Shown here: piece after piece, positions 5,253 through 22,828 of the stretch
Position numbering within the stretch: the first letter of the stretch is position 1
How the letters are laid out: each line of letters begins with the position of its first letter
DNA from: a bacterium
GTDB lineage: Bacteria; UBA8248
Assembly (NCBI GenBank): GCA_965203325.1
Contig: OZ241875.1
Span: 3,360,001-3,424,000 of the forward strand
Direction of reading: 5' to 3'
Length of the DNA stretch: 64,000 nt
Made by a program: the position numbers and the translations under genes
Notes under the pieces: generated by a model
Told to the model about the DNA's origin: nothing
The model's input: only the letters and a program-made list of their open reading frames with translations
The model's database searches: none

Positions 5253-6131
5253 CTACCTGCGCTTCGCGCCGAACGCGCCGACGTACGCCCCGGTGTCGAA
5301 GGCGCCGAAGGCCTCCTCGTGGCCGGGGCCGTGGAAGCGGCCGGACAGGCGGTCCGTGCCGGGCGCGCCTTTCGCGAAGGCGCCGCCGGAGAGCCGCATG
5401 CCGCGCCATTCGAGCGCCACGCCGGCGCCGCCGTCGTCGAGGTCGACGTCCACGTCGACCAGGGGCCGCGCGAGGTCCGCGATCCGCAGCTCGGCGGTGC
5501 CGGGGAGGCGCGCGAAGTCGCGGGTCCGCGCCGCCTCGGCGATGCCGCTCCAGGTCGCGCCGCCCGTACCCGCCGGGTTCGTCCCCGACGGCTCGCCCGC
5601 CGCCCAGGCGTGCGCCGCACGGAACGTGCCGGTCCAGGTCCGCCCGCCGGCCGAGGCCGACAGGTCGCCCGTCCCGATCTCCACCGCCGCGTAGCCGTGC
5701 ACGCCCCAGAAGCCGTGGCGCGTGAACTCCGCCCCGGTGACCGTCGCCGACGCCCCGGCGAAGGCCCGCGTGAGCGGGGGCCCGCCCGTCGCGCCGCTCG
5801 CCGTGGCGAACCCGGCCCGCATGCCCGTGCCCGCGCGGCCCGCGAGCGCCCGCAGGTCCTCCGCCGGGCAGCCGGCGCCGGGGCAGCCGAGCGGCGTCGA
5901 CCCGGTCTCCCCGATCGGCTCTTCTCCCGCGCGCGTGAGTTCATAATCGAAATAAAGCCCCGAGACGAGCGGCGCGGCGGGTTCGCCGGCCGCGGGCGGC
6001 GGCTGTGTGTCGGGAGGCCGTGTTTCGGGAGGCCGTGTGGACGGCGGCGCCGACGTGTTCCCGCCACCGCAGGCGGCGAGGGTCAGCGCGCACGCGAGCG
6101 CGGCGGCGCAACAAAGTATCCGGTGTGTCAT
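5253..6131 (-). CDS. Surface lipoprotein with TbpB/HupA-like C-terminal beta-barrel
   Basis: AAGGAG RBS and ATG at 6131, lipobox LAAC, Pro-rich linker, and C-terminal GRFHGPGHEEAFGAFDTGAYVGAFGAKR typical of transferrin-binding-protein-like barrels. Confidence 0.8.
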   Translation of the reverse strand: MTHRILCCAAALACALTLAACGGGNTSAPPSTRPPETRPPDTQPPPAAGEPAAPLVSGLYFDYELTRAGEEPIGETGSTPLGCPGAGCPAEDLRALAGRAGTGMRAGFATASGATGGPPLTRAFAGASATVTGAEFTRHGFWGVHGYAAVEIGTGDLSASAGGRTWTGTFRAAHAWAAGEPSGTNPAGTGGATWSGIAEAARTRDFARLPGTAELRIADLARPLVDVDVDLDDGGAGVALEWRGMRLSGGAFAKGAPGTDRLSGRFHGPGHEEAFGAFDTGAYVGAFGAKRR

Positions 6132-6183
6132 GAGAGTCGTTCTCCTTTCAGATCGGAGGCATGTCCGCATCGGCGCATCCCCC

Positions 6184-9100
6184 TCAGAACCGCAGGCTGA
6201 GGTCGAGCCCCAGTTCGTGCTCGGGCTCGGACACGGCGCTCTCGCGCCGCTCGCCCGCCAGTTCCACGCGAAGGTCCGCGCCCCGCGCCTCGTACCGCGC
6301 ACCGAGCCTGAGGCGCCGGCTCTCCCCGCCGGCGAGGCCGGCTTCCGCGAACGGCGTCAGCACCCCGCCCGACGCCGTCCCGAACCCGTAGCCGACCTGC
6401 GCGTCGAGCGCGCCGTCGTCGCCCGAAGCCGCCGGGTTCGGCATCTCCTCCGCCCACAGCGCCCGCGCGCCGCCCGTTCCCGCGCCCCAGCGGGGCGCGA
6501 GCGCGAAGAACAGGCCGCGGCCGCCGGCGCCCGGACCGGCGCGCACCGTCAGGCTCACGCCCCGCTCCTCCGCACCCTCCTCGCTGTGCGCCGCGAGCCA
6601 GCGCCCGCGCATCTCCACCGATATCCCGGGCGCCGCGTAGCGCACGCCGCCGGCGAGCTCGAACCCGCTGCCCTCGAGCCCGTCGCCGCCGTCGTGGCGC
6701 ACCGCCGCCTCCAGGAAGGGCTCCAGGCTGCTCTCGCCCGCCAGCGCGAAGCGCCGCGAGGCCTCGAGCCCCGCCCGCAGCCGCCAGCTGTCGGCGGAGA
6801 GCCCGTGGATCGCGTCCGGGCCGTCATCGGTCTCCATCTGCGTGACGCTCGCGTCGGCGCGCACCGCCAGCGCCGCGCCGGCGAGTCCGCCGAGCGCACG
6901 CCTGACCCCCACCGACGCCATCCGCATCGTGAGGTCGCCGGTCTCCGCGTCCGCGTCCCCGGGCTCATGGCGCGCCTCGCCCCAGCCCGCGCCCGCCACC
7001 GCGCGCAGCTCCAGGCCGTCCGCGAGCGTCCAGCGCCCGTAGGGATAGACCGCCGTCAGCGTCGTCTCAAGCCGGCCCCGGCCGGTGAGCGCGCCCCCGG
7101 CGAAGGAATAATCCGCCTCGCCCGTCCCGCGGCTCACCGCGAGGCCCGCCACCCACGGGTCCGAGCGCCCGTCCACGCCCAGCCAGCCCGTGCGCAGCTT
7201 CCCGTCGTAGCGGAGCCCCGTCTCGCCGCCTCCCGCGAACGTCCCGAGATCCCCCCGGCCCCACACCGCCCACTGCGGCCCCGCCGGGCCGGCGTCCTCC
7301 GCCGAGGCGAGACGCACCGAGAAGGCGCTCGCGCCGAACAGGTCGGACGCCGCAAGCGCCCGGCTCTCCGTGCAGCCCAAAGCCGGCACAAGGCCGGCGG
7401 CGGCGTACCGCTCCGGCGCGCAATCGCGCAGCGCGTAGGCCGCGGCGGAACCATCGAGCGACACCGCCTGCCCGGCCAGCGTCACGCCGCTCGCGCCGAT
7501 GTCGGCGAACCTGCCCCCGATGTTGTCCAGCGCGCTCGCCGTCGCCCTTCTCGCCACCGCCGCCAGCGCGCGCCTCACAGCGCCCTCAACCGCCGCGCGC
7601 CGCGGGTCCGCCGCCACCGCGACCACGAAGGTGAGCGCCGCCTCGTCGCCGTCCGCGTCCCGCACCGTCCAGGTGTAGCGCCGCGACCCCTGCGACCGCG
7701 ACGGCGTTCCGGTCAGCCTCCGCGTGGCCCCGTCTAAGCTCAGCCCCGGGGGCGGGGAAGGCGCCAGGCGGTAGGTCAGCGTCCCGTCGCCGCCCGTCGC
7801 CGCCGGAAGCGCCAGCGCCGCGATCGCCGTGCCCGCCGTCCATGACTGGTCCGCGACCGCCGCGTCGCCGAACGACGGCATCAGGTTCTCCTCCACCTCG
7901 ACCGTGAAGGTGAGCGCCGCTTCGTCCCCGTCCGCGTCCCGTACCGTCCAGGTGTAGCGCACCGGCCCCTGCGGGGTGTCCGGCGTGCCGCTCAGCGTGC
8001 GCGCGCCCAGGTCCAGCGCCAGGCCCGAAGGCGGCTCGGGCGTCAGGCGGTAGGTCAGCGTCCCGTCGCCGCCCCTCGCCGCCGGAAGCGTCAGCGCCGT
8101 GATCGCCGTGTTCTGCTTGTACGACTGCGCGGCGACCGCCGCGGACCCGAAGCTCGGCGTCAGGTCCGGCGCGCCGCCACCGCCTCCGCCCCCGCCTACA
8201 TTGCCGCCACCTCCGCCTACATTGCCGCCCCCGCCGCCGCGGTCGTCGTCCCGGATCGTAATCTGCACAGAACGCGGGCTGCCCGCCGTCACCTCAGACG
8301 GCAGCGTCCCCAGCGCCACCGTGAACGTCTCGTCGTCGGTGTCGCTGTCCTGCGCCGTGGTGATGGTCCCCGTTCCGTTGGTCGCGCCCGAGGCGATCGT
8401 GATGCCCGTCAGCGTCCCGTGGTCCTCGGGCTCGGCCGTGCCGTCGGTGATCGTCAGCGGTATCGTCACGCTGTTCGACAGCGCCGCCGACAGCGTCGCC
8501 GTCACGGTCACGCTCGATCCCTCCGCCACCGTCGGCGAGGCCGACAGCGTCACCGTGGGCGTGGTCGTGTCCAGCGTCGCCACGGCCCCCTCGGTCGTGC
8601 CCGTCGCGTGCGCCCAGAAGCCCTTGCCGCTCGCGTTCTCCGCGCGCACCCGCACCCGGTAGGTCGTGCCGTCGTCGAGGCCCGTGATCGCCTGCGAGGC
8701 CGCCGTGCCGCTGCGGCTCACCGCCACCCATTCCGTCGCCACGTTCGTGCCCACGGCCGCGCCGGCGGCGACCGTGTTCGATGCGGTATAGTGCACGTCG
8801 TAGCCCGTCAGCGTCCCCGAGGGCGCCGTCCAGGCGAGGTCCAGCCTGCCGTCGCCGGGCGTCACCGTCAGGCCCGCCGGCGCGGCCGGCGCGTTCTGCG
8901 CATGCCGCGTGACGGTGACCGTCCAGGTCGTGTTGGCCCCCTGCCCCAGCGTCGACGACGCCACCACCTCGATGGCGTTCGCGCCGGCGTCCAGCGCGAT
9001 CGCCCCGCTCGTGTCGCCGCTTGTCAGCGACACCGCGGCGGCGCCCCGCTTGCCCACCGACAGCACGTACCCCCCCAGCACGCCGACCGTCGGCCTCGCC

Positions 9101-11271
9101 TTCACGTGCGTCACCGCGTGCGGCACCGCCGCCGTGTAGTCCGTCACGCGCGGCGAGAAGCCCGGGCTCAGCGCCAGCGCGTCGTAGCTCGCATTCTCGC
9201 CCTGCGCCTTGGTGAGCGCCAGGCCCGTCAGCAGCAGGCCCTCCGGCGTGCCCGCGCCCTCCACCCAGGGGCTCACCAGCCTTCCGCCGGCGTTGCTCGC
9301 TCGCACCCGCACCCGGTAGCGCTGCAGGTTCCGGCCCCTGACCGTGTACGAGGTCGCCGTGGCATCGTTGTGGGGCCCGCTCGCGCGCTGGAGCGCCACC
9401 CAGCCCACGGCCTCGTCGACACCGCGCGCGCGGGCGTCCGCCGCGACGGCGGTCGAGGTGGTGTAGTCCACCCAGTAGGCCGTCACCGTCCCCACCGGCG
9501 GCGCCGTCCACGACAGGTCCAGCCTCCCGTCGCCCGGCGTCACCGTCAGGCCGGTCGGCGCCGCGGGCGCCAGCGCGGCCTCCACCGGCGCCGTCCAGAC
9601 GCCCGCGGACATGCCGTCGCGCTTCACCGAGCGGACCCGCACCAGGTAGGTCTCGCCGACGGCCAGGCCCGTGAAGGTGTGGCTCGTGCCCGTCACGTCC
9701 GTGTCGGTGTTCGGCCAGGCCGCGGCCGACTTCAGCTTGCTCTGCACCTCGTAGCGCACCACGTCCACGCCCGCCGGCGCCTTCCAGCGCGCCGTCAGCT
9801 CGCGGTCTCCCGGCCTCAGCGTCAGGCCCGACGGGACGTTCGAGCTCGGCGTGCCGGTGGCGAAGACGTAAGCGCCCTCCGGGCCCGCCGTGCGCAGGCG
9901 CACCCGGTACGCCCTGCCGTTGGTCAGGCCGGTAATCGTGTACGAGGTGTCGGTGTCGTCGACATCAGCAGACACGGCCACCCAGTGCGTGGCCGCGTTC
10001 GAGCCCGAGCTCGCCGCGGCGTCGGCGACCGCGCCGGCGCCCGTCCTCGGCGCCGAGGTGTAGTCCAGCTCGTAGCCCACGAAATCCCCGTCGGGCCGGG
10101 TCCAGGTTACGAGGAGCTGCGCATTGCCCGGCGTGACCGTCAGGTCGGGAAGGCCGAGCGCCTCCGGCGTGCCGGCGCCGAACGCCCAGGCGCCGTCGCC
10201 CCCGGCGCTCGTCGCCCGCACCCGCACCCGGTGGGCGGACCCGCTCGGCAATCTGCCAATCCTGTGCGAGGTCCTCGCGCCGTGACCGTTGCGGGACACC
10301 GCCACCCAGCCAGTCGCGCCGTTGGTGCCGGCCTGCACCGCCGCGTCGTTCGCGACCGTGTCCACGGTCGCCGACGTGTAGTGCACGTCGTAGCCCGTCA
10401 CCGTCCCCGGCGGCGCCGTCCACGACACGTCCAGCCGCGTCGGGCCCGGCGTGACGCGCAGACCCGTCGGCGCGGCCAGCGGCACCGCCGCGCCGTTGAC
10501 GCGGATTTTCATCGACCGACCACTAAATTCGGCGGTCCAGGTCGACGAAGCGGTCGGCGCGGCGGATCCGTTTCGAAAGTAGTTACCTGCGTTGGCGATG
10601 CTCCAGCCGGCGGCCGCTCCGCTGTCTTCCGCATCAGCGGCGTTATGCGTGAGCCTAAAGGTGGTGAGAGTCTCGGCAGTGGTGTAAACGACCACGTGGT
10701 ATTCGGTGCTCGCCGCGAGCGTGGTGCCTGCCGGCGCCGAAAAGGTGGAGGCCCTTGCGCCCGTCGGGAAGCTCGAGGGGACTGTCAGGTCCGCGAGCTT
10801 CGACCCGGGCTTGCCGCTGCTGGATGACCAAAGCTCCGCCTCGATCGTCGCAATCTGCTGCGCGGTCAGGGCGGCGGTAGTGACGTTCGTACGTATCTCG
10901 ATGCTTTCGAGGGTGTAGCCGCCGCCGTTGGCGCCTGTCGTGAAGCCTTGAGCGCGGGCGAATACTCTGGCCGTTTGCGGGTTATCTGCCCCCGTCTGCC
11001 CGATGTTGCTCACGAGCACGTCGGCGGAGGCCGGCGCGGCGGCGAACGGGGAGAGCAAGAACGCGCCGAGCAGCAGCGCGAGGACGGGAAGGAGGAGGGA
11101 GAGGCGGCGGGCGCGGGGGCGCCCGGAGCGCGGCTCAGGCTTGCGCCTGGAACCTGGCCGGGAATGCGGGACGCCGTTCGGGCCGCTCGTGCCGCCCTTT
11201 TCTTCGGATGACGGATGACGGACCATGCCGCCCCCGGTTGCAAGCCTCTCCATGCGATGTCTCATTTTCAT
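6184..11271 (-). CDS. Autotransporter adhesin: extended signal peptide, choice-of-anchor R-like domain, ~5 FN3 repeats, cadherin-like beta-sandwich, Calx-beta, Gly linker, 2 putative Ig (He_PIG) repeats, C-terminal beta-barrel
   Basis: Signal ending AAAPASA/DVLVSN; repeated 'APTGL.VTPG...L.VSWTAP....GYDV.Y'; FSPRVTDYTAAV; VAEGSSVTVT...DDETFTV; 'PSFG.AAV..Q' x2; barrel starting WAVWGRGD and ending in Phe. Start codon uncertain. Confidence 0.9.
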   Translation of the reverse strand: MKMRHRMERLATGGGMVRHPSSEEKGGTSGPNGVPHSRPGSRRKPEPRSGRPRARRLSLLLPVLALLLGAFLLSPFAAAPASADVLVSNIGQTGADNPQTARVFARAQGFTTGANGGGYTLESIEIRTNVTTAALTAQQIATIEAELWSSSSGKPGSKLADLTVPSSFPTGARASTFSAPAGTTLAASTEYHVVVYTTAETLTTFRLTHNAADAEDSGAAAGWSIANAGNYFRNGSAAPTASSTWTAEFSGRSMKIRVNGAAVPLAAPTGLRVTPGPTRLDVSWTAPPGTVTGYDVHYTSATVDTVANDAAVQAGTNGATGWVAVSRNGHGARTSHRIGRLPSGSAHRVRVRATSAGGDGAWAFGAGTPEALGLPDLTVTPGNAQLLVTWTRPDGDFVGYELDYTSAPRTGAGAVADAAASSGSNAATHWVAVSADVDDTDTSYTITGLTNGRAYRVRLRTAGPEGAYVFATGTPSSNVPSGLTLRPGDRELTARWKAPAGVDVVRYEVQSKLKSAAAWPNTDTDVTGTSHTFTGLAVGETYLVRVRSVKRDGMSAGVWTAPVEAALAPAAPTGLTVTPGDGRLDLSWTAPPVGTVTAYWVDYTTSTAVAADARARGVDEAVGWVALQRASGPHNDATATSYTVRGRNLQRYRVRVRASNAGGRLVSPWVEGAGTPEGLLLTGLALTKAQGENASYDALALSPGFSPRVTDYTAAVPHAVTHVKARPTVGVLGGYVLSVGKRGAAAVSLTSGDTSGAIALDAGANAIEVVASSTLGQGANTTWTVTVTRHAQNAPAAPAGLTVTPGDGRLDLAWTAPSGTLTGYDVHYTASNTVAAGAAVGTNVATEWVAVSRSGTAASQAITGLDDGTTYRVRVRAENASGKGFWAHATGTTEGAVATLDTTTPTVTLSASPTVAEGSSVTVTATLSAALSNSVTIPLTITDGTAEPEDHGTLTGITIASGATNGTGTITTAQDSDTDDETFTVALGTLPSEVTAGSPRSVQITIRDDDRGGGGGNVGGGGGNVGGGGGGGGAPDLTPSFGSAAVAAQSYKQNTAITALTLPAARGGDGTLTYRLTPEPPSGLALDLGARTLSGTPDTPQGPVRYTWTVRDADGDEAALTFTVEVEENLMPSFGDAAVADQSWTAGTAIAALALPAATGGDGTLTYRLAPSPPPGLSLDGATRRLTGTPSRSQGSRRYTWTVRDADGDEAALTFVVAVAADPRRAAVEGAVRRALAAVARRATASALDNIGGRFADIGASGVTLAGQAVSLDGSAAAYALRDCAPERYAAAGLVPALGCTESRALAASDLFGASAFSVRLASAEDAGPAGPQWAVWGRGDLGTFAGGGETGLRYDGKLRTGWLGVDGRSDPWVAGLAVSRGTGEADYSFAGGALTGRGRLETTLTAVYPYGRWTLADGLELRAVAGAGWGEARHEPGDADAETGDLTMRMASVGVRRALGGLAGAALAVRADASVTQMETDDGPDAIHGLSADSWRLRAGLEASRRFALAGESSLEPFLEAAVRHDGGDGLEGSGFELAGGVRYAAPGISVEMRGRWLAAHSEEGAEERGVSLTVRAGPGAGGRGLFFALAPRWGAGTGGARALWAEEMPNPAASGDDGALDAQVGYGFGTASGGVLTPFAEAGLAGGESRRLRLGARYEARGADLRVELAGERRESAVSEPEHELGLDLSLRF
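7615..8160 (-). repeat. Two tandem near-identical Ig-domain coding repeats (~280 bp each) in the autotransporter
   Basis: GGCGGTAGGTCAGCGTCCCGTCGCCGCCC..GCCGCCGGAAGCG.CAGCGCCG.GATCGCCGTG occurs at ~7767 and ~8046; GAAGGTGAGCGCCGC.TCGTC at ~7627 and ~7906. Confidence 0.85.
8172..8240 (-). repeat. 21-bp tandem repeat encoding a GGGGGNV x2 plus poly-Gly linker
   Basis: CCGCCTACATTGCCGCC occurs twice at 21-nt spacing. Confidence 0.8.
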
Positions 11272-11525
11272 TTTCCGGGTCCTTCCCTCTGGTGGAATCC
11301 TCAGAGCCGAACAAAGATGCGAATCCGCCTGATATTCGCCATGCTTCCGCCGGGGACCGCCCGGCGGACGTGCCGGGCGACCCCCTGGAGGAAACCGCTA
11401 CTGCCGGTTCGCCGTATCCCGGGCAGCTCGAAATACGGTAGACTTGCGGACTCGCAGTCCGGGCCGGTGGTTCCGCGAGACAAGAATCCCTGCGGTATGC
11501 GCCCACCTCGAACCCGGGCTGGTGT

Positions 11526-11545
11526 CCGCTAATTGCCGTTATTGG
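11526..11545. promoter_or_regulatory. Degenerate copy of the CCGATAAT-N4-ATTATCGG palindrome (recombinase-binding or operator site)
   Basis: CCGCTAATTGCCGTTATTGG matches the reverse complement of 11705-11724 at 17/20 positions. Confidence 0.6.
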
Positions 11546-11674
11546 CCCCCAGAAGCCTTGTTTTCCGCCGAAAAACCCGTTTCGGGGGGCATTCGGGCCG
11601 CAAATGAGCGAAAGGTGAGCGAAAAAAGGCGCAAAACGGCGCCCGAAACCCCTCCGGGGACCCCGGAATTGCGC

Positions 11675-11702
11675 TTGACATGGCCGTGAGAGGTGTTAAA
11701 TT
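11675..11702 (+). promoter_or_regulatory. sigma70 promoter facing the integrase remnant
   Basis: TTGACA (11675-80), 16 bp, then TAAATT (11697-702) with extended -10 TG. Confidence 0.7.
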
Positions 11703-11703
11703 T

Positions 11704-11725
11704 TCCGATAATGGCAATTATCGGA
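11704..11725. promoter_or_regulatory. Perfect palindrome TCCGATAAT-GGCA-ATTATCGGA; tyrosine-recombinase core-type site or operator overlapping the transcription start
   Basis: 9-bp perfect arms directly after the -10 box; TAA-N6-TTA geometry. Confidence 0.7.
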
Positions 11726-11839
11726 CTCCAGAAACCCGCCGTTTCGCCGGTATTCCCCTGCGAAACGGCTTTTTTTGTGGAAATTCCCCGTCGTCGTCCA
11801 TACTTGGCAATCGAGGAGGCGCTCGGGCGGCCTCAAGCA

Positions 11840-12065
11840 ATGGAAACGGCCGCCGACCTGGAAGGGTGGTTTCTCGGCATGACGACGGGGGCAAGACCAT
11901 CCGACCCGACGCTCAGGGGATTCGAGCGCTCGGGAAACCCCGAGACCGACGCCGGGATAGCGGCGTACCTGGGGGATCTCTACGAGGGGGGGCACTCGGC
12001 GGCCGTGGCCGCAATGGCGAGCCTGCGCTACGGGCGGTGAGGTTCGCCCGGCGCTTCGTCGTGAG
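11840..12065 (+). pseudogene. Frameshifted, truncated N-terminal (core-binding) fragment of a Cre-like tyrosine recombinase
   Basis: ...PETDAGIAAYLGDLYEGGHSAAVAAMA stops at 12040, while the adjacent frame continues ALRAVRFARRF. Joined, they give the 'D..IAAYL..L...G.S.A.A.MA.AAVRF' helix pattern of integrase N-terminal domains. No catalytic R-H-x-x-R-Y domain follows. Confidence 0.5.
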
Positions 12066-12128
12066 CATGTCCTTCGCTCCGGGCAGGTCCGCCGCGTGCA
12101 GGACGCCCGTCTTCTCCCGAATATCTCT

Positions 12129-12848
12129 CTACCGCCTCTTCCTCATCCGGGCGGCTCTCTCCTCGGACGTGGAGGTCCACCTCCGCGCGGAGGCCCACTT
12201 CTCGAGGTCTTCGAGCAGGTAGCGCACCCGGTATCCGATGCGAAGAAAATCAGGCCCCTCTCCGCTCACGCGGTAGCGCTCGAGCGTCTTGGGCGAGAGG
12301 CCGAGCCAGGCGGCCGCCTCCCGCGTGTCCAGGTGGTTCTCCTCCGCGCGCTCATCGGCGTCTCCCGCGGCGCCGGGTTCCCCGGCGGCGTCCCACGTCC
12401 CGTCGAACGGGTCGGGCAAGTCCGCGAGCCTCTCGCGTATGGCGCGGACCTCTTCTCCCGTCGCGTTGGCCGCCATCCAGGCGCGCACCCGGTCGAAGGT
12501 CTTGAGATACGGCGAGGCGCCCCGGCGCAGCCTCCCCACGAAGGAGGGATTCCCCACGGCCTCCTCGCCCAGGATCGAGACCTTGGTCCCGCTCACCGCG
12601 AGAAACGCCTCGACCTCGGCCCGCAGGAGCGGTCCCAGGGGCGGATACCCCATGAACGCCAGCACCCGGTCCGCCGTGTCGACCCGCAGGGGCCGCCCCC
12701 GGGCGTGCAGTCCCACGAAGCCGGGAACCCCCAGCGCGCCCACCCCGAAGCGCCTCGCGCTCATCCCGCGGCGCGCGCGCCAGAGCGCAATGCTCCGGCG
12801 CAGCCGCTCGTCCAGCGGGGTGCCGGTATCGTCGTCGAACGCGGTCAT
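12129..12848 (-). CDS. DNA-binding protein: two tandem Cro-like helical domains plus C-terminal excisionase/AlpA-like HTH_17 domain
   Basis: Internal repeat (GMSARRFG..ALG.PGFV....RGR..R.DTADRV..FM / GTKVSILG..AVGNPSFV.RLRRGASP.LKTFDRV..WM), then LDTREAAAWLGLSPKTLERYRVSGEGPDFLRIGYRVRY. Confidence 0.8.
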   Translation of the reverse strand: MTAFDDDTGTPLDERLRRSIALWRARRGMSARRFGVGALGVPGFVGLHARGRPLRVDTADRVLAFMGYPPLGPLLRAEVEAFLAVSGTKVSILGEEAVGNPSFVGRLRRGASPYLKTFDRVRAWMAANATGEEVRAIRERLADLPDPFDGTWDAAGEPGAAGDADERAEENHLDTREAAAWLGLSPKTLERYRVSGEGPDFLRIGYRVRYLLEDLEKWASARRWTSTSEERAARMRKRR

Positions 12849-13324
12849 GGCGCGCGAACATAAGGAAAGAACGAGCGCCCGTTCAATCGTTGTTTCTAGC
12901 GCGGAAGGTACACCCGGGAAGAGTCCGCGACCGCTCCCGCGAGCGGGTCGCTCATCGGTTCAGCCTGAAATCACGGGGTTTCCCGGAAAACGAGGGTCGC
13001 CGGAGAACGTGCAGCGAGGCGCTGCGGAAAAAAAGGAAGGACGCCGCCTCCCGGGCGAGAGCTCGAAAGCCTCTTTCGTTCACGCCGCGGCGCCCGGCGA
13101 GTTGCATCTCGACCGGAGAAGCCCCTGCTGCGGCAAGGCGCTGCGCGCTGCCCGTGCGCAGGTCGAAACGGCGCCGATTCCCTTGTTTCATTCGTTTCTA
13201 TCGTATCGTATGCTGATGTTCCGGGTCGTCCGCCAAATACAATACGGCCAAGCCGAAATAGGCGGACATTCCTTCGTGGATTGTATGCCAACGGCCCGGA
13301 TTCTGGAGGGCATATAAAATATTC

Positions 13325-13367: not shown

Positions 13368-13468
13368 CACGGATACCCGACACGGATTCGCCGGAGTGCG
13401 CGGCAGTTTTAGTCAATCCGCTTTCGTTTTGATTACATAGCTGAAAATGCAGATTTGAGAAAGATTCG

Positions 13469-13503
13469 AAAAAATAAATATATATAATGTTATCAATAGG
13501 TTA
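13469..13503 (+). promoter_or_regulatory. IHF-type binding site with upstream A/T tract
   Basis: TATCAATAGGTTA (13491-13503) matches WATCAANNNNTTR exactly and lies in an AT-rich patch. Confidence 0.55.
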
Positions 13504-13723
13504 CAATAATTTAACGGACGATGAAAATTGCTTGAATATCAAAAGGGGGGGTAGGGGGGGTTGCCTTTCAGGTCAAGGGGGGAGTGAATCCCTTCTCTAC
13601 TCGGTCGCGATTGACCCCCGAAGCGCGCCGGCCCGCAACGCTTGGGACGGCTCGGCATTCCGCGGGCGGTGTACTAGAATGGGCGGACGCCACCTCTTTA
13701 TATACCTCTCTGATGGAGACGAC

Positions 13724-15430
13724 ATGTCCGTTCGCGAATCCGTAGACGCCGATTCCCTGTGGAAAAACCTGGAAGACCTCTGCCGCTGGGAGCGCTACAC
13801 CGGCACCGAGGGCGAGAACGAGGCCGTGCGCTACGTCGAGGCGGAACTCACCGCGCTCGGGATAGACGTGGCCGTCCACGCGTTCGATTCCCTCATCAGC
13901 ATCCCCGGCGAGACGACGCTCGAAGTGCCCGGAGAAGGGGGCGGGACGATCCGCGCCATCAGCGCGGTGTTCGGCGCATCCACGGGAGCGGCGGGCGTGC
14001 GCGGCCAGGCGGTCCATGTCGGCGAAGCCGGCCCGCCCGACACGCCGTTCACCGATCCTCTCTATACGGGCGCAACCGGCGAGGCCCCCGTGGCGGGGCG
14101 CGTCGTCGTGGCCGAGGGGATGGTGAGCCCCGGCCGGTTTTATTATTTCGAGCGGCGCGGCGCGGTCGCGCAGGTCTACGTCAACCACGGCAACGCGCAC
14201 GAGCTGACCGTCTCCACCATCTGGGGTGCGCCGACGCCCGAGAGCATCGCGCGGCTGCCCGGGACGCCCGTCGTCACCCTCTCGCGCGGGCAGGGCGCTG
14301 CGCTTCTGGAGCGGTTAAAGAGGAGGGAGGAGGTCGAGCTGCTCATCCGCGTGGAGATGGACACCGCCTGGCGGGAGACCCTGATGCCGGTCGCCACCAT
14401 CGCGCCCGGTAGCGGGGCCGGGGATTACGTCCTCGTCGGCGGGCACATCGACTCCTGGCACATCGGTGCGAACGACAACGCGGCGGGCGACGCGACCCTG
14501 ATGGAGCTTGCGCGCGTCGCGCACGGGAGGCGGGGCGAGCTTGCGCGCGGCCTTAAACTAGCCTGGTGGAACGGGCACTCGCACGGGCGCTTCTCGGGCT
14601 CCACCTGGTACGCGGACCACATGTTTCACGAGCTGCGCCGGAACTGCGTCGCGTACTTGAACATCGACCAGCCCGGCTGCGTGGGTGCCACGCTCTACCG
14701 CCCGTTCTGCACGGCGGACGTGCGCGACTGGGTGCGGGACGCCCTCGCGCGTCTGGGGGGTCAGGATACCGAGCCGGATCACCCCCGCAAGATGGCCGAC
14801 CAGTCGATGTGGGGGGTGGGCGTGCCCTCGTTCTCCTTCCTGCCCGTCCTCCCGCCCGGCCACCCCGACTTGCGGAAGGATCACCCCGGCGACGGCTTCC
14901 CGGAGTACTGGCACCACCCCGCCGACACGCTGGACAAGATGGACAAGGACCTCCTCGCCGAGCACTGCCGCCTCTATGCGGACGCGCTCCACGAACTCTG
15001 CGCGCTCGAGCGCGCCCCGCTCAACCCCGCCGCGACGGCCGCCGTCGTGAATGAGGAGATAGAGCGGCTGGAATCGCTCGCAGGCGAAGCCGTGGACCTG
15101 GGCGATCTGAAAGAGGCGGGGGCGCGCTTCGCCCGCGCGTGCGCGGCGCTTGATGCGAAGCTGGATGGCATGGACGCCGCGGCCGCCAACCGCGCGCTGC
15201 TCGACATGAGCCACGCGGTCAATCCCGTGCTCTACACGCTGGCGGGGCCGTTCGACCACGACCCGGCGAGCGGCGCGTTCCGGATGCCGGGGCTTCAGTG
15301 CATCGCCCACTACGCCGAACGCGGGCCTGCGAGCGATGCGGGCAAGGTCATCTACACGCGCGTCCTGCGCGAGAAGAACCGCGTCGTCGCCGGCCTCGCC
15401 GCCGCCAGCGCCATCGCGGAGGGGGTATAG
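13724..15430 (+). CDS. M28-family metallopeptidase-like protein with PA domain
   Basis: GGAG RBS and ATG at 13724; GGHIDSW..GANDNAAG, YLNID, YWHHPADT motifs. Confidence 0.85.
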   Translation: MSVRESVDADSLWKNLEDLCRWERYTGTEGENEAVRYVEAELTALGIDVAVHAFDSLISIPGETTLEVPGEGGGTIRAISAVFGASTGAAGVRGQAVHVGEAGPPDTPFTDPLYTGATGEAPVAGRVVVAEGMVSPGRFYYFERRGAVAQVYVNHGNAHELTVSTIWGAPTPESIARLPGTPVVTLSRGQGAALLERLKRREEVELLIRVEMDTAWRETLMPVATIAPGSGAGDYVLVGGHIDSWHIGANDNAAGDATLMELARVAHGRRGELARGLKLAWWNGHSHGRFSGSTWYADHMFHELRRNCVAYLNIDQPGCVGATLYRPFCTADVRDWVRDALARLGGQDTEPDHPRKMADQSMWGVGVPSFSFLPVLPPGHPDLRKDHPGDGFPEYWHHPADTLDKMDKDLLAEHCRLYADALHELCALERAPLNPAATAAVVNEEIERLESLAGEAVDLGDLKEAGARFARACAALDAKLDGMDAAAANRALLDMSHAVNPVLYTLAGPFDHDPASGAFRMPGLQCIAHYAERGPASDAGKVIYTRVLREKNRVVAGLAAASAIAEGV

Positions 15431-16398: not shown

Positions 16399-16815
16399 TC
16401 AGTCGGTCGTCCGCGTGAGAGTATAGCGTATGGTGAGCACGAGTGTCTTATCGAGCCAGGGCAGGGGGGCCGCTTTCCGCACCGCTTCCAGGGAGGCGTG
16501 GTCGAGATGGGCGTTGCCCGAGGTCTTCTTGATCCGTAAATTCCGCAACCGCCCGTCGGGCAGCACCCGGAAGCTCACCGTGGCCGCGCCCTCCGCCCCC
16601 GATTCACGCGCGAGCGGGGGATAATGCTGGTGGCGCCTGATGCGCCCGAGGATGGCCGCGACGCGCGCGTCCGCATCCGTCCCCACCCGGCGCTTCCTGA
16701 AGGTGAAAGAGGGCGCCTCGGGCGGTTCGTTCACGGAAGTCTCGATCTCCTGCGCGGGGAGAGGCGCAGGAATGGAGAGAACAAGGAGCGCGATGAGGGC
16801 AAGGGCTGTTCTCAT
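16399..16815 (-). CDS. tonB: TonB-family energy transducer (short, C-terminal domain)
   Basis: YPPLARESGAEGAATVSF.V.PDG....RIKKTSGNAHLDHASLEAVRKAAP. Confidence 0.85.
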   Translation of the reverse strand: MRTALALIALLVLSIPAPLPAQEIETSVNEPPEAPSFTFRKRRVGTDADARVAAILGRIRRHQHYPPLARESGAEGAATVSFRVLPDGRLRNLRIKKTSGNAHLDHASLEAVRKAAPLPWLDKTLVLTIRYTLTRTTD

Positions 16816-17597
16816 TCTCTCTCCTCCATCGTTCGCAGGATGAAGTATCGCTCGTCCCCGCCGTTCACCGGCAGTATCTGCGCGCGCACCCCGAACGCCT
16901 GTTCGATGAATTGGGGCCGCAGGACGCTTCGCGGGTTCCCGGAGACGAGGACTTCTCCCTGGTGGAGCAGGAGCAGTTCGTCGCAGTAGCGGTGCGCGAG
17001 GTTCAGGTCATGCACCGAGACCACCACGGTGCGGCCCCCGGAAGCCTGTGCGCGGAGGATGGCCAGGATGTCGAGACAGTGCCTCACGTCCAGATTCGCA
17101 AAGGGCTCATCGAGCAGCAGGACGGGCGTCTGCGCGGCGAGGGTTCTCGCGATCAGCACGCGCTTCATCTCCCCGCCCGAGAGTTCGTTGATCGCGCGGC
17201 CCGCCAGGTCTCCCGCGTCCACGTCTTGAAGCGCCGCATTCACCGCCTCGCGGTCCGCATCGGTCTCAGGCGCGAGCCTGCCCTGGTGGGGGTATCTCCC
17301 CATCATCACCGTCTCGTCGGCGCGGAAGGGAAAGGCGGGTTCGTGCTTCTGGGCGAGATAGCCGACGCGGCGGGCGATTTCTTTCCTGTCGAAGGCGTCG
17401 ATGGATTCGCCTTCGAGAGAGATGCGCCCGCTTTTCAGGGGCACGAGACCCGCGAGCGCGCGCAGGAGCGTCGTCTTGCCCGCGCCGTTGGGTCCGATGA
17501 CGCCCGTGAGCGCGCCGGGGCGGAAATCGGCCGACACGCCCTTGAGCACAATCCGCTCGCCGAGTTCGACGGTTGCGTTTTCGACGCTGAGCCGCAT
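16812..17597 (-). CDS. btuD: Cobalamin/siderophore ABC transporter ATP-binding protein
   Basis: ATG at 17597 overlaps the permease stop; GPNGAGKTT, LSGGE, LLLDEP, VHDLN. Confidence 0.9.
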   Translation of the reverse strand: MRLSVENATVELGERIVLKGVSADFRPGALTGVIGPNGAGKTTLLRALAGLVPLKSGRISLEGESIDAFDRKEIARRVGYLAQKHEPAFPFRADETVMMGRYPHQGRLAPETDADREAVNAALQDVDAGDLAGRAINELSGGEMKRVLIARTLAAQTPVLLLDEPFANLDVRHCLDILAILRAQASGGRTVVVSVHDLNLAHRYCDELLLLHQGEVLVSGNPRSVLRPQFIEQAFGVRAQILPVNGGDERYFILRTMEERE

Positions 17598-18631
17598 CAG
17601 AAGGTCTCCGCGCGCGCACGGTTCTTGACGATGAGGTACAGGAAGAAGGGCCCGCCGATACCCGCCGAGAGGACGCCCAGGCGTATCTCGCCCCCGGGGG
17701 AGAGCGTCCGCGCGAGCAGGTCCATCCCCGTCACGAAGACCGCGCCCGCGATCATGCTCAAGGGGAGGAGTCTCCGGTGGTCCGGCCCGGCCAGCATCCG
17801 CACGATGTGGGGGACGAGCAGGCCCACGAAGCCGACCACGCCCGCCACGGCCACCGACGCTCCGGCCGCGGCGGCGGCGATGACGAGGATCCACGCCTTC
17901 GTCCGCGCCGTGTCCACGCCGAGCGCCATGGCGGATTCTTCCCCCGACATCATGAGGTTGAGTTCGCGCCCGAAAAACGCGGCGGCGACCGCGGAGGCGG
18001 CGAAAAAGGGCGCCACGAGGATCACGTGCTCCCAGGTGCGGTTCGTGAGGCTCCCCATGAGCCAGAAGAGGATCTGGCGCGCGATCTCGAAATCGCTCAC
18101 GCTGTAGCTGAGCACGAGCGTCGTCAGCGCGCCCGCGATAGAGTTCACCGCCATGCCGCAGAGGATGAGCGCGCCCAGGGGCGTGTGTCCCTTGTGCGAT
18201 GCGACCAGCGAGACGAGGAACACCGTCGCGAGCGCGCCGCCGAAGGCGCTCAGGGGAACGGCCCAGATCGAGGCGGCCCCCAGACCCAGGGCGATGGCGC
18301 TCGTCGCGCCCAGCGCGCCGCCCGTGCTGGCACCTACGACGGCGGGGCTCGCCATCGGGTTCCGGAAAAGGCCCTGCAGCATCACGCCCGAGAGCGCCAG
18401 CGAGGCGCCGACGAAAGCGCCCGTGAGCGTGCGGGGGAGGCGGATGTGCCAGATGATGGCGCGCTCGTGCGCGGAGACGCCCGCCCCCTCGGTTGAGATG
18501 AGGCCGAGTTCGCTCAGGATGATTTTCACGATTTTATCGGCGCCGATATCCGCCACACCCAGACGGACGCTGAGCGCGGCAAGGAGCAGGGCGAGGGTGA
18601 CGAGCACAGCCGCCAGGGCGTATTTCCTCAT
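17597..18631 (-). CDS. btuC: FecCD/BtuC-family ABC permease
   Basis: IRLPR, QGLFRNPMASP, GVVGFVGLLVPH; ATG at 18631 with ATGA overlap. Confidence 0.9.
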   Translation of the reverse strand: MRKYALAAVLVTLALLLAALSVRLGVADIGADKIVKIILSELGLISTEGAGVSAHERAIIWHIRLPRTLTGAFVGASLALSGVMLQGLFRNPMASPAVVGASTGGALGATSAIALGLGAASIWAVPLSAFGGALATVFLVSLVASHKGHTPLGALILCGMAVNSIAGALTTLVLSYSVSDFEIARQILFWLMGSLTNRTWEHVILVAPFFAASAVAAAFFGRELNLMMSGEESAMALGVDTARTKAWILVIAAAAAGASVAVAGVVGFVGLLVPHIVRMLAGPDHRRLLPLSMIAGAVFVTGMDLLARTLSPGGEIRLGVLSAGIGGPFFLYLIVKNRARAETF

Positions 18632-19494
18632 GGATAAAGCCCTCTCACCAGATCGTCCAGTGCGCCTGCGATGTATTGCGACACGCTCGAGAAGCGCGGG
18701 TAGGGGATCTCGACGATCTTCTTTTCCCGCAGGGGGGCGTAGACCCCGTTCGCGCGGATGACGTCCTTCATGCCCGCGCCTGATTCGGGGTGCGCCCCCA
18801 CCATGATGACGTCCGGGTCCCAGGCGATGATTCGCTCCGCCGACACCCTCCGCGCTCCCCGCAACCCGCGTTCGGCGGCGGCGTTCACGCCGCCTGCAAG
18901 GCGGATGAGCGCATCGTGCGAGGTGCCTTCGCCCGTCACCCACCCGCCCCGCACGAGAGTGAGAATGCGCGGGGGCTTCGCATCGGGCGGTATGCGCGCG
19001 CGGATGGCGCGGATTCTCTCGCGGGCATCTTTAATGAGTTTTTGCGCCTTCGCTTCTTCACCGATCAGGCGGCCCATCTTCTCGATGCTTGCGAAAACGT
19101 CCGCAACGCCGCTGAAAGAGGAGAATCTGGACACCGGCACTCCGGCGGCCCGCAGGTGGTTCAGGAACGCGGCGCTCGAATACGAGGCGACAAACACCAT
19201 GTCCGGCCTTAATGCGATGATGCGCTCGGGCGCGCTGTCGATGAGGGGGATGCTCCCCACCTTATCGGCGACGTTGGAATAGCCCGGATGTCCGGCCAGC
19301 TTGTGCAGGCCGACGATTCTTTCTCTGGGCGCGAGAGCGAGGAGCATCTCGGCGGTGGCGAGCGTCATGGCGATCAGCCGTTCGGGCTTCCTGGCGGCGC
19401 GGGCGGGTGCGGCCCCCTCCGGCATCGGGGAGAGCGCAGCCCATAGAAGAGCCGCCGCCAGGAAGCGAATTTTGAGATTATTCCATAATCGCAT
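18628..19494 (-). CDS. btuF: Cobalamin-binding periplasmic protein (Peripla_BP_2)
   Basis: ERLIAMTLATAEML, ERIIALRPDMV, LAGGVN, VSAERIIAWDPDVI; lies in a B12-riboswitch operon. Confidence 0.85.
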   Translation of the reverse strand: MRLWNNLKIRFLAAALLWAALSPMPEGAAPARAARKPERLIAMTLATAEMLLALAPRERIVGLHKLAGHPGYSNVADKVGSIPLIDSAPERIIALRPDMVFVASYSSAAFLNHLRAAGVPVSRFSSFSGVADVFASIEKMGRLIGEEAKAQKLIKDARERIRAIRARIPPDAKPPRILTLVRGGWVTGEGTSHDALIRLAGGVNAAAERGLRGARRVSAERIIAWDPDVIMVGAHPESGAGMKDVIRANGVYAPLREKKIVEIPYPRFSSVSQYIAGALDDLVRGLYP

Positions 19495-19525: not shown

Positions 19526-19851
19526 GGGCTGTTGGAAAACCCCTCCAAAGAGGAGATATCCCTCTCTCCTCGGTCGGGTTTCAAATTCACTCCTCCTCAA
19601 AAGGGGCTGTTGAAAAAGTCCACAGAAGGAGCGCGCTAGATTTCACTCCCCCCTTGAGGGGGAGTCAACGAGACAAGGGCGAAGCCCGCAGGCGAGTTGG
19701 TGGGGGGACATTCCACAGAGTAAACCTCCCCCCACCGATTCAGCCTTCGCAAAAACCGCTCGGCTTCATCGACTCCCCCTCAAGGGGGGAGTGAACTTCA
19801 AAATCTTGCGCTCAACCAAAATCGCTCCACAAGGCCTTTTCCAACAACCCC
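19526..19851. mobile_element. MITE-like composite repeat B (two left-end copies) between btuB and btuF
   Basis: GGGCTGTTGGAAAACCCC at 19526, GGGGCTGTTGAAAAAGTC at 19603, right end GGCCTTTTCCAACAACCCC. Internal ACTCCCCCCTTGAGGGGGAGT...GACTCCCCCTCAAGGGGGGAGT as in element A. Confidence 0.7.
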
Positions 19852-21890: not shown

Positions 21891-21958
21891 GATGTGATGC
21901 CTCCTTGAGCGGCCCAAGCGCTCGAAACGGACCCCTTGCGGGGTCGTGTGGAGATGAT

Positions 21959-22102
21959 GCCGACAGGCCGGTCTTCTGGCTCGCGCCGATGGCCGCCTTT
22001 CATTCCTTCCCGGGTGTATCCCGGTGGACTGCATGAAAGGCGCGTCGCTTACAGCTGCCGGGCAGCTCCGGATTCGCACCGGATTCCCGTACACCTGCCG
22101 GC
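21959..22102 (-). ncRNA. Cobalamin riboswitch (proximal copy)
   Basis: Minus strand: GCCGGCAGGTG TACGGGAATCCGGTGCGAATCCGGAGCTGCCCGGCAGCTGTAA...CCACCGGG..CCCGGGAAGG...GAGCCAGAAGACCGGCCTGTCGGC (B12 box plus P1 pairing). Confidence 0.9.
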
Positions 22103-22135
22103 TGTTTCAGCGGCGGACGCTCCGCCGCGCTTATG

Positions 22136-22767: not shown

Positions 22768-22828
22768 AGGTCGGAACAAATGCTTTCCAGCTACAAAATC
22801 AGCGCGCTGCGATGGCCGGCATCAGATA

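What the first reader, a model, noticed from the sequence alone, without database searches (positions are those of the whole stretch)
11526..11725. Two inverted tyrosine-recombinase-like core sites bracketing a promoter
Seen: a perfect TCCGATAAT-GGCA-ATTATCGGA at 11704-25 and a 17/20 copy at 11526-45 whose asymmetric centre (TGCC) is in the opposite orientation. The ~160 bp between them contains TTGACA-16-TAAATT. Known: inverted core sites allow inversion, as in promoter switches. From memory, the arms resemble the Rhizobium etli IntA att palindrome, which needs verifying. Inference: either an invertible promoter that would point at the autotransporter when flipped (phase variation, currently facing away), or an autoregulatory operator/att pair.
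Basis: partly seen in the sequence, partly recalled or inferred. Interest (0 to 1): 0.8.

Follow-up and report, generated by a model that had tools for sequence, protein, structure and literature searches.

The report
Flippable promoter switch, parked OFF
The two sites bracket a 157-base promoter segment that a Cre-like enzyme can flip; it is one of 16 such switches placed before surface-protein genes in an uncultured Nitrospinota bacterium that appears to live in sponges, and this copy points away from its gene and has lost its own enzyme.

Summary

- **Family:** the window element (11525-11725) is one of 16 paralogous modules in this 4.39-Mb genome. Each has two 22-bp sites (arm TCCGATAA, 6-bp spacer, arm TTATCGGA) 179 bp apart around a conserved TTGACA promoter.
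- **Both orientations:** relative to conserved outer flanks, the inner segment faces one way at 13 of 16 loci and the other way at 3 of 16.
- **Exchange signature:** each half-site stays with its flank. The variable spacer matches between the two sites of a locus at 29 of 30 loci.
- **Enzyme:** six loci keep an intact Cre-like tyrosine recombinase gene just beyond the right site. In the window that gene is internally deleted, so flipping would need paralogous enzymes acting in trans.
- **Possible defect:** the one spacer mismatch among the 30 loci is in the window copy, so it may flip poorly.
- **IntA recall verified:** the arms equal the Rhizobium etli IntA att arms.
- **Not shown:** both orientations at this exact locus. 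Public contigs were too fragmented.

This scan found the same family before at a paralogous locus of this genome (e1-4827508); I reached the same reading independently. It is a new member of a known kind.

The parts
6184..11271 (-). Target gene: 1695-aa secreted repeat protein (fn3 x5, He_PIG, cadherin-like) that reads away from the switch
   Evidence: ORF. Pfam: fn3 1.7e-45, He_PIG 6.6e-12, Cadherin-like 2.3e-8, and no autotransporter family at E<=0.01. A signal-peptide-like hydrophobic stretch lies at residues 57-79, and the C-terminus ends ...LSLRF.
11471..11524 (.). Conserved outer flank A (about 54 bp), on the side of the target gene
   Evidence: It aligns among most of the 16 loci (query 1447-1500 of the extract).
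11525..11546 (.). Left recombination site (IR-L): outer arm TCCGCTAA, spacer TTGCCG, inner arm TTATTGGC
11547..11703 (.). 157-bp invertible segment
   Evidence: The same segment is present at 16 loci. It lies inverted relative to flanks A and B at 3 of 16.
11627..11644 (-). Terminator-like hairpin with a T run inside the segment, on the strand opposite to the promoter. Inferred role: blocks read-through from the right-hand side into the target gene.
   Evidence: The sequence is conserved in the inner segments printed.
11675..11702 (+). Promoter TTGACA-16-TAAATT with an extended TG, now pointing away from the target gene
   Evidence: TTGACA is present in all 16 paralogous copies and in relatives.
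11704..11725 (.). Right recombination site (IR-R): inner arm TCCGATAA, spacer TGGCAA (reverse complement TTGCCA), outer arm TTATCGGA. It is a perfect palindrome.
11738..11776 (+). Terminator hairpin (10-bp stem) followed by T7, lying between the switch and the recombinase gene
   Evidence: Fold of -29.7 kcal/mol, z -4.43, 0 of 200 shuffles as good. By my reading of the folds, a hairpin plus T run is visible at 14 of 16 loci.
11777..12040 (+). Remnant of the Cre-like recombinase gene: 88 codons, with an in-frame internal deletion of about 225 codons that removes the catalytic domain
   Evidence: The translation compared with the intact paralogue P0001. tblastn matches residues 1-92 only.
12129..12848 (-). 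239-aa protein with a C-terminal HTH_17 (excisionase-type) domain, convergent with the recombinase gene. It is part of the duplicated block and its role is unknown.
   Evidence: Pfam HTH_17 5.2e-8. There are 11 full-length copies in the genome, 10 of them beside modules.
13090..13161 (-). Short fragment resembling residues 266-289 of the recombinase (the HxxR region), in inverted orientation
   Evidence: tblastn (b3371525, offsets 1365-1436 beyond IR-R).
5257..13088 (.). 7.8-kb segmental duplicate that carries the whole unit, 97.1% identical to genome 1023245-1031062

Best explanation
The two sites are lox/att-like core sites of a Cre/IntA-like tyrosine recombinase. Each has two inverted 8-nt arms (consensus TCCGATAA) around a 6-nt asymmetric spacer. 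The two sites lie in inverted orientation around a 157-bp segment that holds a sigma-70-type promoter.

Recombination within the spacer flips the segment. In the orientation seen in the window, the promoter fires into a hairpin terminator and the remnant of the recombinase gene, so the target is OFF. In the other orientation it would read through IR-L and flank A into the 1695-aa fn3/Ig/cadherin-like surface-protein gene, so the target is ON.

The window copy is one of 16 such switches in the genome: 9 stand before large repeat proteins and 7 before lipoproteins. Its own recombinase gene is internally deleted, so flipping must rely on the six intact paralogous recombinases (77-96% identical to each other) acting in trans on near-identical arms.

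Shown here:
- the anatomy of the sites and segment;
- the multi-copy family;
- both orientations among paralogues and relatives;
- half-sites that stay with their flanks;
- spacer co-variation between the two sites of a locus;
- recombinases with intact catalytic motifs.

Inferred:
- the transcription start;
- the ON/OFF effect on expression;
- action of the recombinases in trans;
- the OFF-state promoter feeding recombinase expression at the intact loci;
- that this copy still flips.
For: - **Copies:** there are 16 copies of the promoter core in the genome. Each lies between two 22-bp sites 179 bp apart, with conserved flanks A and B.
- **Orientation:** the promoter faces flank B at 13 of 16 loci and flank A at 3 of 16 (2078026, 2672534, 3869512). 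In BLAST against the window locus, those three align in reverse over 206-213 bp at 90.6-91.3% identity, while their flanks align directly.
- **Half-sites stay with their flanks:** the arm next to A is TCCGCTAA-like and the arm next to B is TTATCGGA. The two inner arms keep their identity in flipped loci. This is what exchange inside the spacer predicts.
- **Spacer co-variation:** I compared 30 loci, 16 from this genome and 14 from other genomes of the genus-level group. The 12 nt TAA-N6-TTA of the left site equal the reverse complement of the right site at all 30 loci at 11 of the 12 positions. At the twelfth position they match at 29 of 30. The N6 itself varies among loci.
- **No serine recombinase:** the genome has no PF00239 match (completeness 95.5%). 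It has 38 PF00589 matches, six of them directly beyond IR-R of a module.
- **Enzyme type:** those six are 311-354 aa and keep the LLRVSE, SKT, GHSLR, GRW and GRY motifs. These align with the catalytic R, K, H, R, W and Y of Cre. Cre is the best match among solved structures, at E 5.9e-13.
- **IntA link:** the R. etli IntA att site has the same arms and lies upstream of its integrase gene.
- **Other genomes:** the module is found in 11 of 22 other genomes of the same genus that were searched. Of 18 loci in other genomes printed, the promoter faces the recombinase gene in 12 and faces away in 6.
- **Independent flips:** on a tree of the inner segment, the 5 flipped rows of 30 are scattered. The best tree needs 5 changes and the one well-supported branch forces at least 2. 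The nearest non-identical relative of the window's segment (L059, a sister genome) is flipped.
- **Targets:** all 16 loci have an open frame of at least 316 codons reading away from IR-L.
Against: - Both orientations were not shown at this exact locus. The only public runs that hold it are short contigs, which break inside the repeats.
- The window copy is the single locus of 30 whose two spacers differ: TTGCCG against TTGCCA at spacer position 6. In Cre-lox systems such heterology lowers recombination (recalled), so this copy may be slow or locked.
- Its own recombinase gene is deleted. Action in trans is inferred only.
- No transcription start, RNA or protein data exist. No RNA run was listed.
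- The inner-segment tree is poorly resolved: 19 of 26 inner branches are unsupported. The number of independent flips is therefore uncertain.
- Orientation in a consensus assembly shows only the majority state.
Confidence: 0.85

Rival explanations
1. The element is a decayed, locked relic. It belongs to the switch family but no longer flips, because its recombinase gene is deleted and its two spacers differ. The surface-protein gene would then be permanently silent, or expressed from elsewhere.
For: There is an internal deletion of the recombinase gene. The only spacer mismatch among 30 loci is here. The near-identical duplicate at 1029511 carries the same deletion but has matching spacers.
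Against: The arms, the promoter and both terminators are intact and identical or nearly so to those of paralogues. Six intact recombinase genes exist elsewhere in the genome. Another copy with a deleted recombinase gene (3869512) sits in the flipped state, so orphan copies can end up in either orientation. The 1695-codon target frame is still open.
Confidence: 0.3
2. The palindromes are only operators for a DNA-binding protein (the recombinase remnant, the HTH_17 protein or another regulator) that represses the promoter. There is no DNA inversion.
For: IR-R lies immediately downstream of the -10 hexamer, a typical operator position. An HTH_17 protein gene lies nearby.
Against: This does not explain the inner segment lying in both orientations between constant flanks. 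It also does not explain co-variation of an asymmetric spacer between the two sites. The HTH_17 protein is missing from 5 of the 16 loci and from the loci of other phyla. Binding of the recombinase at IR-R could still repress as a side effect.
Confidence: 0.03
3. The sites are an att pair of an IntA-type integrase used for integration, excision or cointegrate formation of a mobile element. Alternatively, the element is a small mobile element that inserts in either orientation.
For: The arms are the same as in the IntA att. The unit lies in a 7.8-kb duplicated, high-GC block.
Against: Two sites in inverted orientation 179 bp apart give inversion, not excision. The same flanks A and B surround the segment at all loci, and the half-sites stay with the flanks. 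That fits in-place inversion rather than re-insertion. All 16 copies stand before surface-protein genes.
Confidence: 0.03
4. In its present orientation the module is mainly a small-RNA gene: promoter, about 65-nt transcript, terminator.
For: The promoter is followed at about 65 nt by a strong terminator hairpin.
Against: No Rfam family matches here. The transcript would consist of half a recombination site plus the terminator. Orientation changes among loci place the promoter before protein-coding genes.
Confidence: 0.04

Closest known systems
fimS switch with FimB/FimE tyrosine recombinases (Escherichia coli type 1 fimbriae); recalled, no paper read here
   Same: A short promoter-bearing segment lies between inverted repeats and is flipped by tyrosine recombinases encoded next to it. 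It gives ON/OFF control of a surface structure, and the orientation affects recombinase expression.
   Different: Here the recombinase is Cre/IntA-like rather than FimB-like; the NCBIfam tyrosine-type DNA invertase models score only E about 2e-4, far below cut-off. The sites are full lox-like 8-6-8 palindromes. There are 16 copies per genome, many without their own enzyme. No accessory-factor sites were examined.
Mycoplasma penetrans mpl (P35) lipoprotein family with one invertible promoter per gene (Horino et al. 2003, as described in passages of PMC2268961)
   Same: A multigene family of surface (lipo)proteins is scattered over the chromosome. Each gene has its own invertible promoter, and a few tyrosine recombinases are thought to act on many loci.
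   Different: The phylum differs (Nitrospinota, not Mollicutes), and so does the recombinase lineage (Cre/IntA-like, not Xer-like). Here a recombinase gene or its remnant accompanies 13 of 16 switches. The targets include eukaryote-like fn3/cadherin/Calx-beta proteins.
Bacteroides invertible promoters of capsule and surface-protein loci, flipped by globally acting recombinases (mentioned in PMC2268961; Mpi and Tsr details recalled)
   Same: Many promoter invertons per genome control surface structures, with action in trans on several loci.
   Different: The master invertase Mpi of Bacteroides is a serine recombinase (recalled). This genome has no PF00239 match.
Rhizobium etli IntA with attA/attD (PMC4928290, abstract and one Background passage read; plasmid p42a record NC_007762.1)
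   Same: The 8-nt arms TCCGATAA/TTATCGGA around a short divergent centre are identical. The site lies just upstream of the recombinase gene. IntA is a simple bidirectional tyrosine recombinase. Homology is detectable: 31% identity over 186 aa, E 3e-11.
   Different: The IntA site has a 7-nt centre (23 bp), against 6 nt here (22 bp). It is used for plasmid cointegration and excision between sites on different replicons, not for promoter inversion. The homology is distant.
Cre-loxP of phage P1
   Same: Cre is the best match among solved structures (E 5.9e-13, residues 87-313). The catalytic R, K, H, R, W and Y are conserved. The site is built as two inverted arms plus an asymmetric spacer whose identity between partners is maintained.
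   Different: loxP is 13-8-13 (recalled), against 8-6-8 here. Cre resolves plasmid dimers and is not used as a promoter switch.

Membership tests
Promoter inverton (phase-variation switch flipped by a site-specific recombinase) | Two inverted repeats bound a short DNA segment | tested here: met
   Sites at 11525-11546 and 11704-11725. The inverted repeat is 27 nt and 85% complementary, with 159 nt between the arms.
Promoter inverton (phase-variation switch flipped by a site-specific recombinase) | A promoter lies inside the segment, near one end | tested here: met
   TTGACA-16-TAAATT at 11675-11702, 10 of 12 matches, the only site in 1.8 kb. It is conserved in 16 of 16 paralogues. The transcription start was not mapped.
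Promoter inverton (phase-variation switch flipped by a site-specific recombinase) | Both orientations of the segment occur between the same flanks | tested here: met
   This is met for the family: 13 loci face flank B and 3 face flank A among the 16 paralogues, and 12 against 6 among 18 loci of other genomes. For this exact locus it is inconclusive, because the contigs break in the repeats.
Promoter inverton (phase-variation switch flipped by a site-specific recombinase) | A cognate recombinase is encoded beside the switch or elsewhere in the genome | tested here: met
   Six intact paralogous genes lie directly beyond IR-R at other loci. At this locus only an 88-codon remnant is left.
Promoter inverton (phase-variation switch flipped by a site-specific recombinase) | A gene is placed so that one orientation drives it | tested here: met
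   The 1695-aa gene reads away from IR-L. The same holds at all 16 loci.
Promoter inverton (phase-variation switch flipped by a site-specific recombinase) | Switching and orientation-dependent expression are seen within a population | not testable with these tools
   No raw reads or RNA runs were available.
Cre/IntA-like simple tyrosine recombinase with a lox/att-type core site | Catalytic R-K-H-R-W/H-Y residues in the recombinase | tested here: met
   Alignment with Cre. The motifs are present in all 6 intact paralogues. They are absent from the window remnant.
Cre/IntA-like simple tyrosine recombinase with a lox/att-type core site | The core site has two inverted binding arms around a 6-8-bp asymmetric spacer, kept identical between partner sites | tested here: met
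   The 8-6-8 structure is seen, and the spacer matches between partners at 29 of 30 loci. The exception is the window locus.
Cre/IntA-like simple tyrosine recombinase with a lox/att-type core site | Arms identical to the IntA att arms (TCCGATAA / TTATCGGA) | tested here: met
   Paper passage and the p42a site at 2595-2617, compared with window 11704-11725.
Cre/IntA-like simple tyrosine recombinase with a lox/att-type core site | Close sequence relationship to IntA itself | tested here: inconclusive
   31% identity over 186 aa, E 3e-11, with the p42a integrase beside the att site. This is homology but not orthology. That this gene is IntA is my inference from its position.
Cre/IntA-like simple tyrosine recombinase with a lox/att-type core site | The recombinase binds and cleaves the site | not testable with these tools
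   This needs EMSA or an in vitro or in vivo inversion assay.
Serine-invertase switches (Hin/Gin/Mpi type) | A serine recombinase (Resolvase, PF00239) is encoded in the genome | tested here: not met
   0 matches in the 4.39-Mb genome, which is 95.5% complete.
   No autotransporter family among the Pfam hits at E<=0.01. The C-terminus ends ...LSLRF, which resembles an outer-membrane protein terminus (the resemblance is recalled), so a divergent barrel is not excluded.

The most novel reading that the evidence does not exclude
The 16 switches form one self-wired network. In the OFF orientation each promoter reads, through a leaky terminator, into its own Cre/IntA-like recombinase gene. OFF loci would therefore supply the enzyme pool that flips all loci in trans, including orphan copies such as the window's. 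A few spacer classes would limit recombination between loci. The cassette has spread horizontally among unrelated sponge-symbiont phyla (Nitrospinota, Latescibacterota, Poribacteria, Binatia), where it gives stochastic, combinatorial display of eukaryote-like adhesion proteins towards the host.
Probability: 0.3. Interest if true: 0.75.

Novelty: new member of a known kind. Interest (0 to 1): 0.6.

Why it matters
Sponge symbionts are uncultured. Their many eukaryote-like surface proteins (fn3, cadherin-like, Calx-beta) are thought to mediate recognition by the host, or escape from it, but how they are regulated is unknown.

A family of 16 recombinase-flipped promoters in front of exactly these genes would mean that the symbiont population varies its surface stochastically, as pathogens and gut commensals do. 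The prediction can be tested directly on existing long-read sponge metagenomes by counting orientations per locus.

The recombinase/site pair is also a compact, apparently factor-independent 22-bp system related to Cre and IntA, with natural spacer variants. My full-text searches found no paper linking invertible promoters or invertons with sponge symbionts or these phyla.

Tried and rejected
1. **Direct test for both orientations at this locus.** The look-up of sequencing runs listed 24 runs, all kept as Logan contigs, with no RNA holder listed. Laying X1-X4 gave only short pieces. Contigs coming from flank A stop inside IR-L (11532-11542), and no strand-change joint was listed. This says nothing either way.
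2. **Metagenome scan.** The 23-base promoter core gave 0 hits in metagenome contigs. I did not use the second scan that was allowed.
3. **Orthologue comparison with the sister genome G012.** The repeated cassette makes orthology ambiguous, so I dropped it. I used a tree of the inner segment instead, which is poorly resolved.
4. **Rfam.** No family matches in the region.
5. **HTH_17 protein as a needed accessory factor.** It is absent from 5 of the 16 loci and from the loci of other phyla, so I do not count it as a core part.
6. **An ATG inside the window's IR-R spacer, in frame with the recombinase remnant.** Most paralogues have other spacers, so I treat it as coincidence.
7. **Operator-only, att-pair, mobile-element and small-RNA readings.** See the rival explanations.
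8. **Rows dropped before counts.**
   - In one search I left out L048-L051 (Latescibacterota and Binatia), because their sites do not share the TAA-N6-TTA register. The three Latescibacterota loci (L048-L050) still have 17-nt exact inverted repeats.
   - In one search, L039 and L043 sit on long branches.
   - In one search, 9 of the 29 loci examined (L053-L058, L061-L063) showed no exact inverted repeat of 11 nt or more.
   - The repeats in L047 and L052 look like chance matches.

Full report
**Observation.** TCCGATAATGGCAATTATCGGA lies at 11704-11725 and is a perfect palindrome around GGCA. TCCGCTAATTGCCGTTATTGGC lies at 11525-11546, with the centre in the opposite sense. It matches the reverse complement of the right site at 17 of 20 positions over 11526-11545.

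The repeat finder ranks this pair first: 27-nt arms, 85% complementary, 159 nt apart. The palindrome pattern is unique in the window, against 0.04 expected by chance. TTGACA-16-TAAATT at 11675-11702 is the only promoter-like site in 10800-12600 on either strand, against 0.1 expected.

**A multi-copy family.** In the whole 4.39-Mb genome the palindrome pattern with at most 2 mismatches occurs 17 times on each strand. The reversed control pattern occurs 0 times. A search with the 41-nt promoter core finds 16 copies.

Each copy has the same anatomy:
- a conserved flank A;
- a 22-bp site;
- a 157-bp inner segment, with the promoter at one end and a terminator-like hairpin on the opposite strand;
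- a second 22-bp site, 179 bp from the first;
- a conserved flank B that begins with a hairpin followed by a T run.

For the window's copy that hairpin folds at -29.7 kcal/mol with z -4.43. By my reading of the folds, a hairpin plus T run is visible at 14 of 16 loci.

**Both orientations.** Relative to flanks A and B, the inner segment points its promoter at B in 13 of 16 loci, including the window. It points at A in 3 of 16 (2078026, 2672534, 3869512). In BLAST against the window locus, these three align in reverse over 206-213 bp at 90.6-91.3% identity, while their flanks align directly.

The four half-sites keep their identity with their neighbours. The arm next to A is TCCGCTAA-like and the arm next to B is TTATCGGA. 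The two inner arms move with the segment. That is the signature of strand exchange inside the centre of the sites.

**Spacer co-variation.** I compared 30 loci: the 16 of this genome and 14 from other genomes of the genus-level group. The 12 nt TAA-N6-TTA of the left site equal the reverse complement of the right site at all 30 loci at 11 of the 12 positions. At the twelfth position they match at 29 of 30.

The N6 itself differs among loci; examples are TTGCCG, TTGACG, TTGATG, TTACTG, TTGTCG, TTGCTG, TCGTTA and CTGTTA. The flanking arm positions do differ between the two sites of a locus, so the matching is confined to the spacer.

This is what a tyrosine recombinase that needs homology in a 6-bp overlap would maintain. 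It also redefines the site as 8-6-8. The single mismatch is in the window copy: TTGCCG on the left against TTGCCA on the right. The window's 97% identical duplicate at 1029511 has TCTGATAAC... there, and its spacers match.

**The enzyme.** The genome has no serine recombinase match (completeness 95.5%) and 38 tyrosine-recombinase matches. Directly beyond flank B's terminator, 52-55 bp from the right site, six loci carry an intact 311-354-aa gene.

The six proteins are 77-96% identical to each other and keep LLRVSE, SKT, GHSLR, GRW and GRY. These align with the catalytic residues of Cre. Cre is the best match among solved structures (E 5.9e-13). Pfam gives Phage_integrase at 6e-19. NCBIfam gives only sub-threshold Xer and invertase matches.

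Seven loci, the window among them, keep only an N-terminal remnant, and three have none. In the window the frame runs ...AAVAAMA|SLRYGR*. This is an in-frame loss of about 225 codons between two short similar motifs.

**The IntA recall.** The paper on R. etli IntA gives attA as a 23-bp palindrome with arms TCCGATAA and TTATCGGA around a divergent centre (PMC4928290, abstract and one Background passage read). Plasmid p42a carries such a site at 2595-2617. That is 108 bp upstream of a site-specific integrase gene at 1339-2487 on the minus strand.

That integrase is 31% identical to the recombinase here over 186 aa (E 3e-11). So the arms are the same and the enzymes are distant homologues. The centre is 7 nt there and 6 nt here. 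A plausible origin, which is inference, is an IntA-type gene with its att site upstream, followed by duplication of the site in inverted orientation around a promoter.

**Other genomes.** The module is found in 11 of 22 other genomes of the same genus that were searched, with 20 matches in one of them. Relatives of the recombinase occur in MAG records:
- records titled Nitrospinota, and unnamed bacteria, at 69-93% identity;
- Latescibacterota, at 47-55%;
- a Binatia record, at 73% over the best segment;
- Poribacteria, at 42-46%;
- Rhodothermales, at 50%.

Among the 29 loci examined (L035-L063), 17 have inverted repeats of this site type, 166-280 bp apart, just upstream of the gene. Three of these are Latescibacterota loci with arms TTTCCGATAA. 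One more locus, from Binatia, has a different repeat.

Of the 18 units printed, the promoter faces the recombinase gene in 12 and faces away in 6. Poribacteria loci show a variant CAGATAA-N6-TTATATG site near the gene.

On a tree of the inner segment, the 5 flipped rows of 30 are scattered. The best tree needs 5 changes, and the only well-supported branch forces at least 2. The tree is weak, with 19 of 26 inner branches open. The closest non-identical relative of the window's segment, L059 from a sister genome, is flipped.

**Targets.** All 16 loci have an open frame of at least 316 codons reading away from the left site. Nine are large proteins with a shared N-terminus and fn3, cadherin-like and Calx-beta domains. 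Seven are lipoproteins with a ...LAGCGGGG lipobox and no Pfam family.

The window's target (6184-11271, minus strand) has five fn3 stretches, He_PIG and cadherin-like domains, and a signal-peptide-like segment. Its C-terminus ends ...LSLRF. No autotransporter domain was detected.

**How it most likely works.**
- *OFF orientation, as in the window.* The promoter fires rightwards into the flank-B terminator. At intact loci, read-through would feed the recombinase gene. The internal hairpin at 11627-11644 on the minus strand would stop leftward read-through, for instance from the convergent HTH_17 gene, before it reaches the target.
- *ON orientation.* After inversion the promoter points leftwards, through IR-L and the roughly 250-nt leader, into the surface-protein gene.
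- *The window copy.* It has no enzyme of its own, so it must be flipped in trans by the six paralogous enzymes, whose sites share the same arms.

These expression and trans-action steps are inferred. The DNA-level evidence for inversion in the family is strong.

**Caveats for this copy.** No data show both orientations at this locus. Its spacers differ at one position and its recombinase gene is deleted. I therefore give about 0.3 to the view that this particular copy is slow or locked OFF.

**Comparison and novelty.** Functionally this is a fimS-type promoter inverton. In genome-wide layout it is closest to the M. penetrans mpl family and the Bacteroides systems (PMC2268961 passages). The enzyme/site pair is closest to IntA-att and Cre-lox.

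Full-text searches found no paper that joins invertible promoters, invertons or phase variation with sponge symbionts or these phyla. A search for inverton surveys across phyla returned only a paper on hsdS invertons (listing seen).

The scan had already noted a paralogous copy of this family in the same genome (e1-4827508), with the same reading. I read that note only after searches had led me to the same conclusion. I file this as a new member of a known kind.

Noticed in passing
window 21949-22113 and 22595-22779 (- strand): Two full-length cobalamin riboswitch aptamers (91 and 117.5 bits) lie about 480 bp apart on the same strand. They stand upstream of a TonB-dependent receptor gene (19851-22094) and a FecCD/ABC/periplasmic-binding transporter with a TonB gene (16399-19494). 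This may be a tandem riboswitch arrangement.
   Followed up: no
window 5257-13088: A 7.8-kb segmental duplication, 97.1% identical to genome 1023245-1031062. It carries the surface-protein gene, the switch, the deleted recombinase gene and the HTH_17 gene. It coincides with a 70-77% GC block in a genome region that is otherwise 50-65% GC.
   Followed up: partly
window 12129-12848 (- strand): A 239-aa protein with a C-terminal excisionase-type HTH_17 domain and no other family match. There are 11 full-length copies in the genome, 10 of them beside switch modules. It was seen only in genus-level relatives and its role is unknown.
   Followed up: partly
window 13090-13161 (- strand): An inverted fragment resembling the HxxR region of the recombinase lies at the far end of the conserved flank-B block. 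It is also present at five other loci with deleted recombinase genes. This hints at past rearrangement between modules.
   Followed up: no
own genome, e.g. G000:C1:972327-974007, 737617-739297, 3831553-3833231: About eleven pairs of adjacent tyrosine-recombinase genes (open frames 400-640 aa) are scattered over the genome. They look like a multi-copy element with two recombinases and are unrelated to the switch family.
   Followed up: no
window 13430-13570: A very AT-rich stretch is followed by G runs (GGGGGGGG..GGGGGGG) just before and within the start of the M28 peptidase ORF (13487-15430).
   Followed up: no
window 37978-38053 (- strand): A tRNA-Arg(CCG) gene lies in a 1-kb dip to 50% GC, a possible island boundary.
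   Followed up: no
L048-L050 and L063 (Latescibacterota MAG records): Recombinase relatives at 53-55% identity have CCGATAA-N6-TTATCGG sites. In L048-L050, 17-nt inverted repeats lie 276-280 bp apart, with the TTGACA promoter facing away from the recombinase gene in all three. The switch family therefore crosses phylum borders among sponge-associated lineages.
   Followed up: partly
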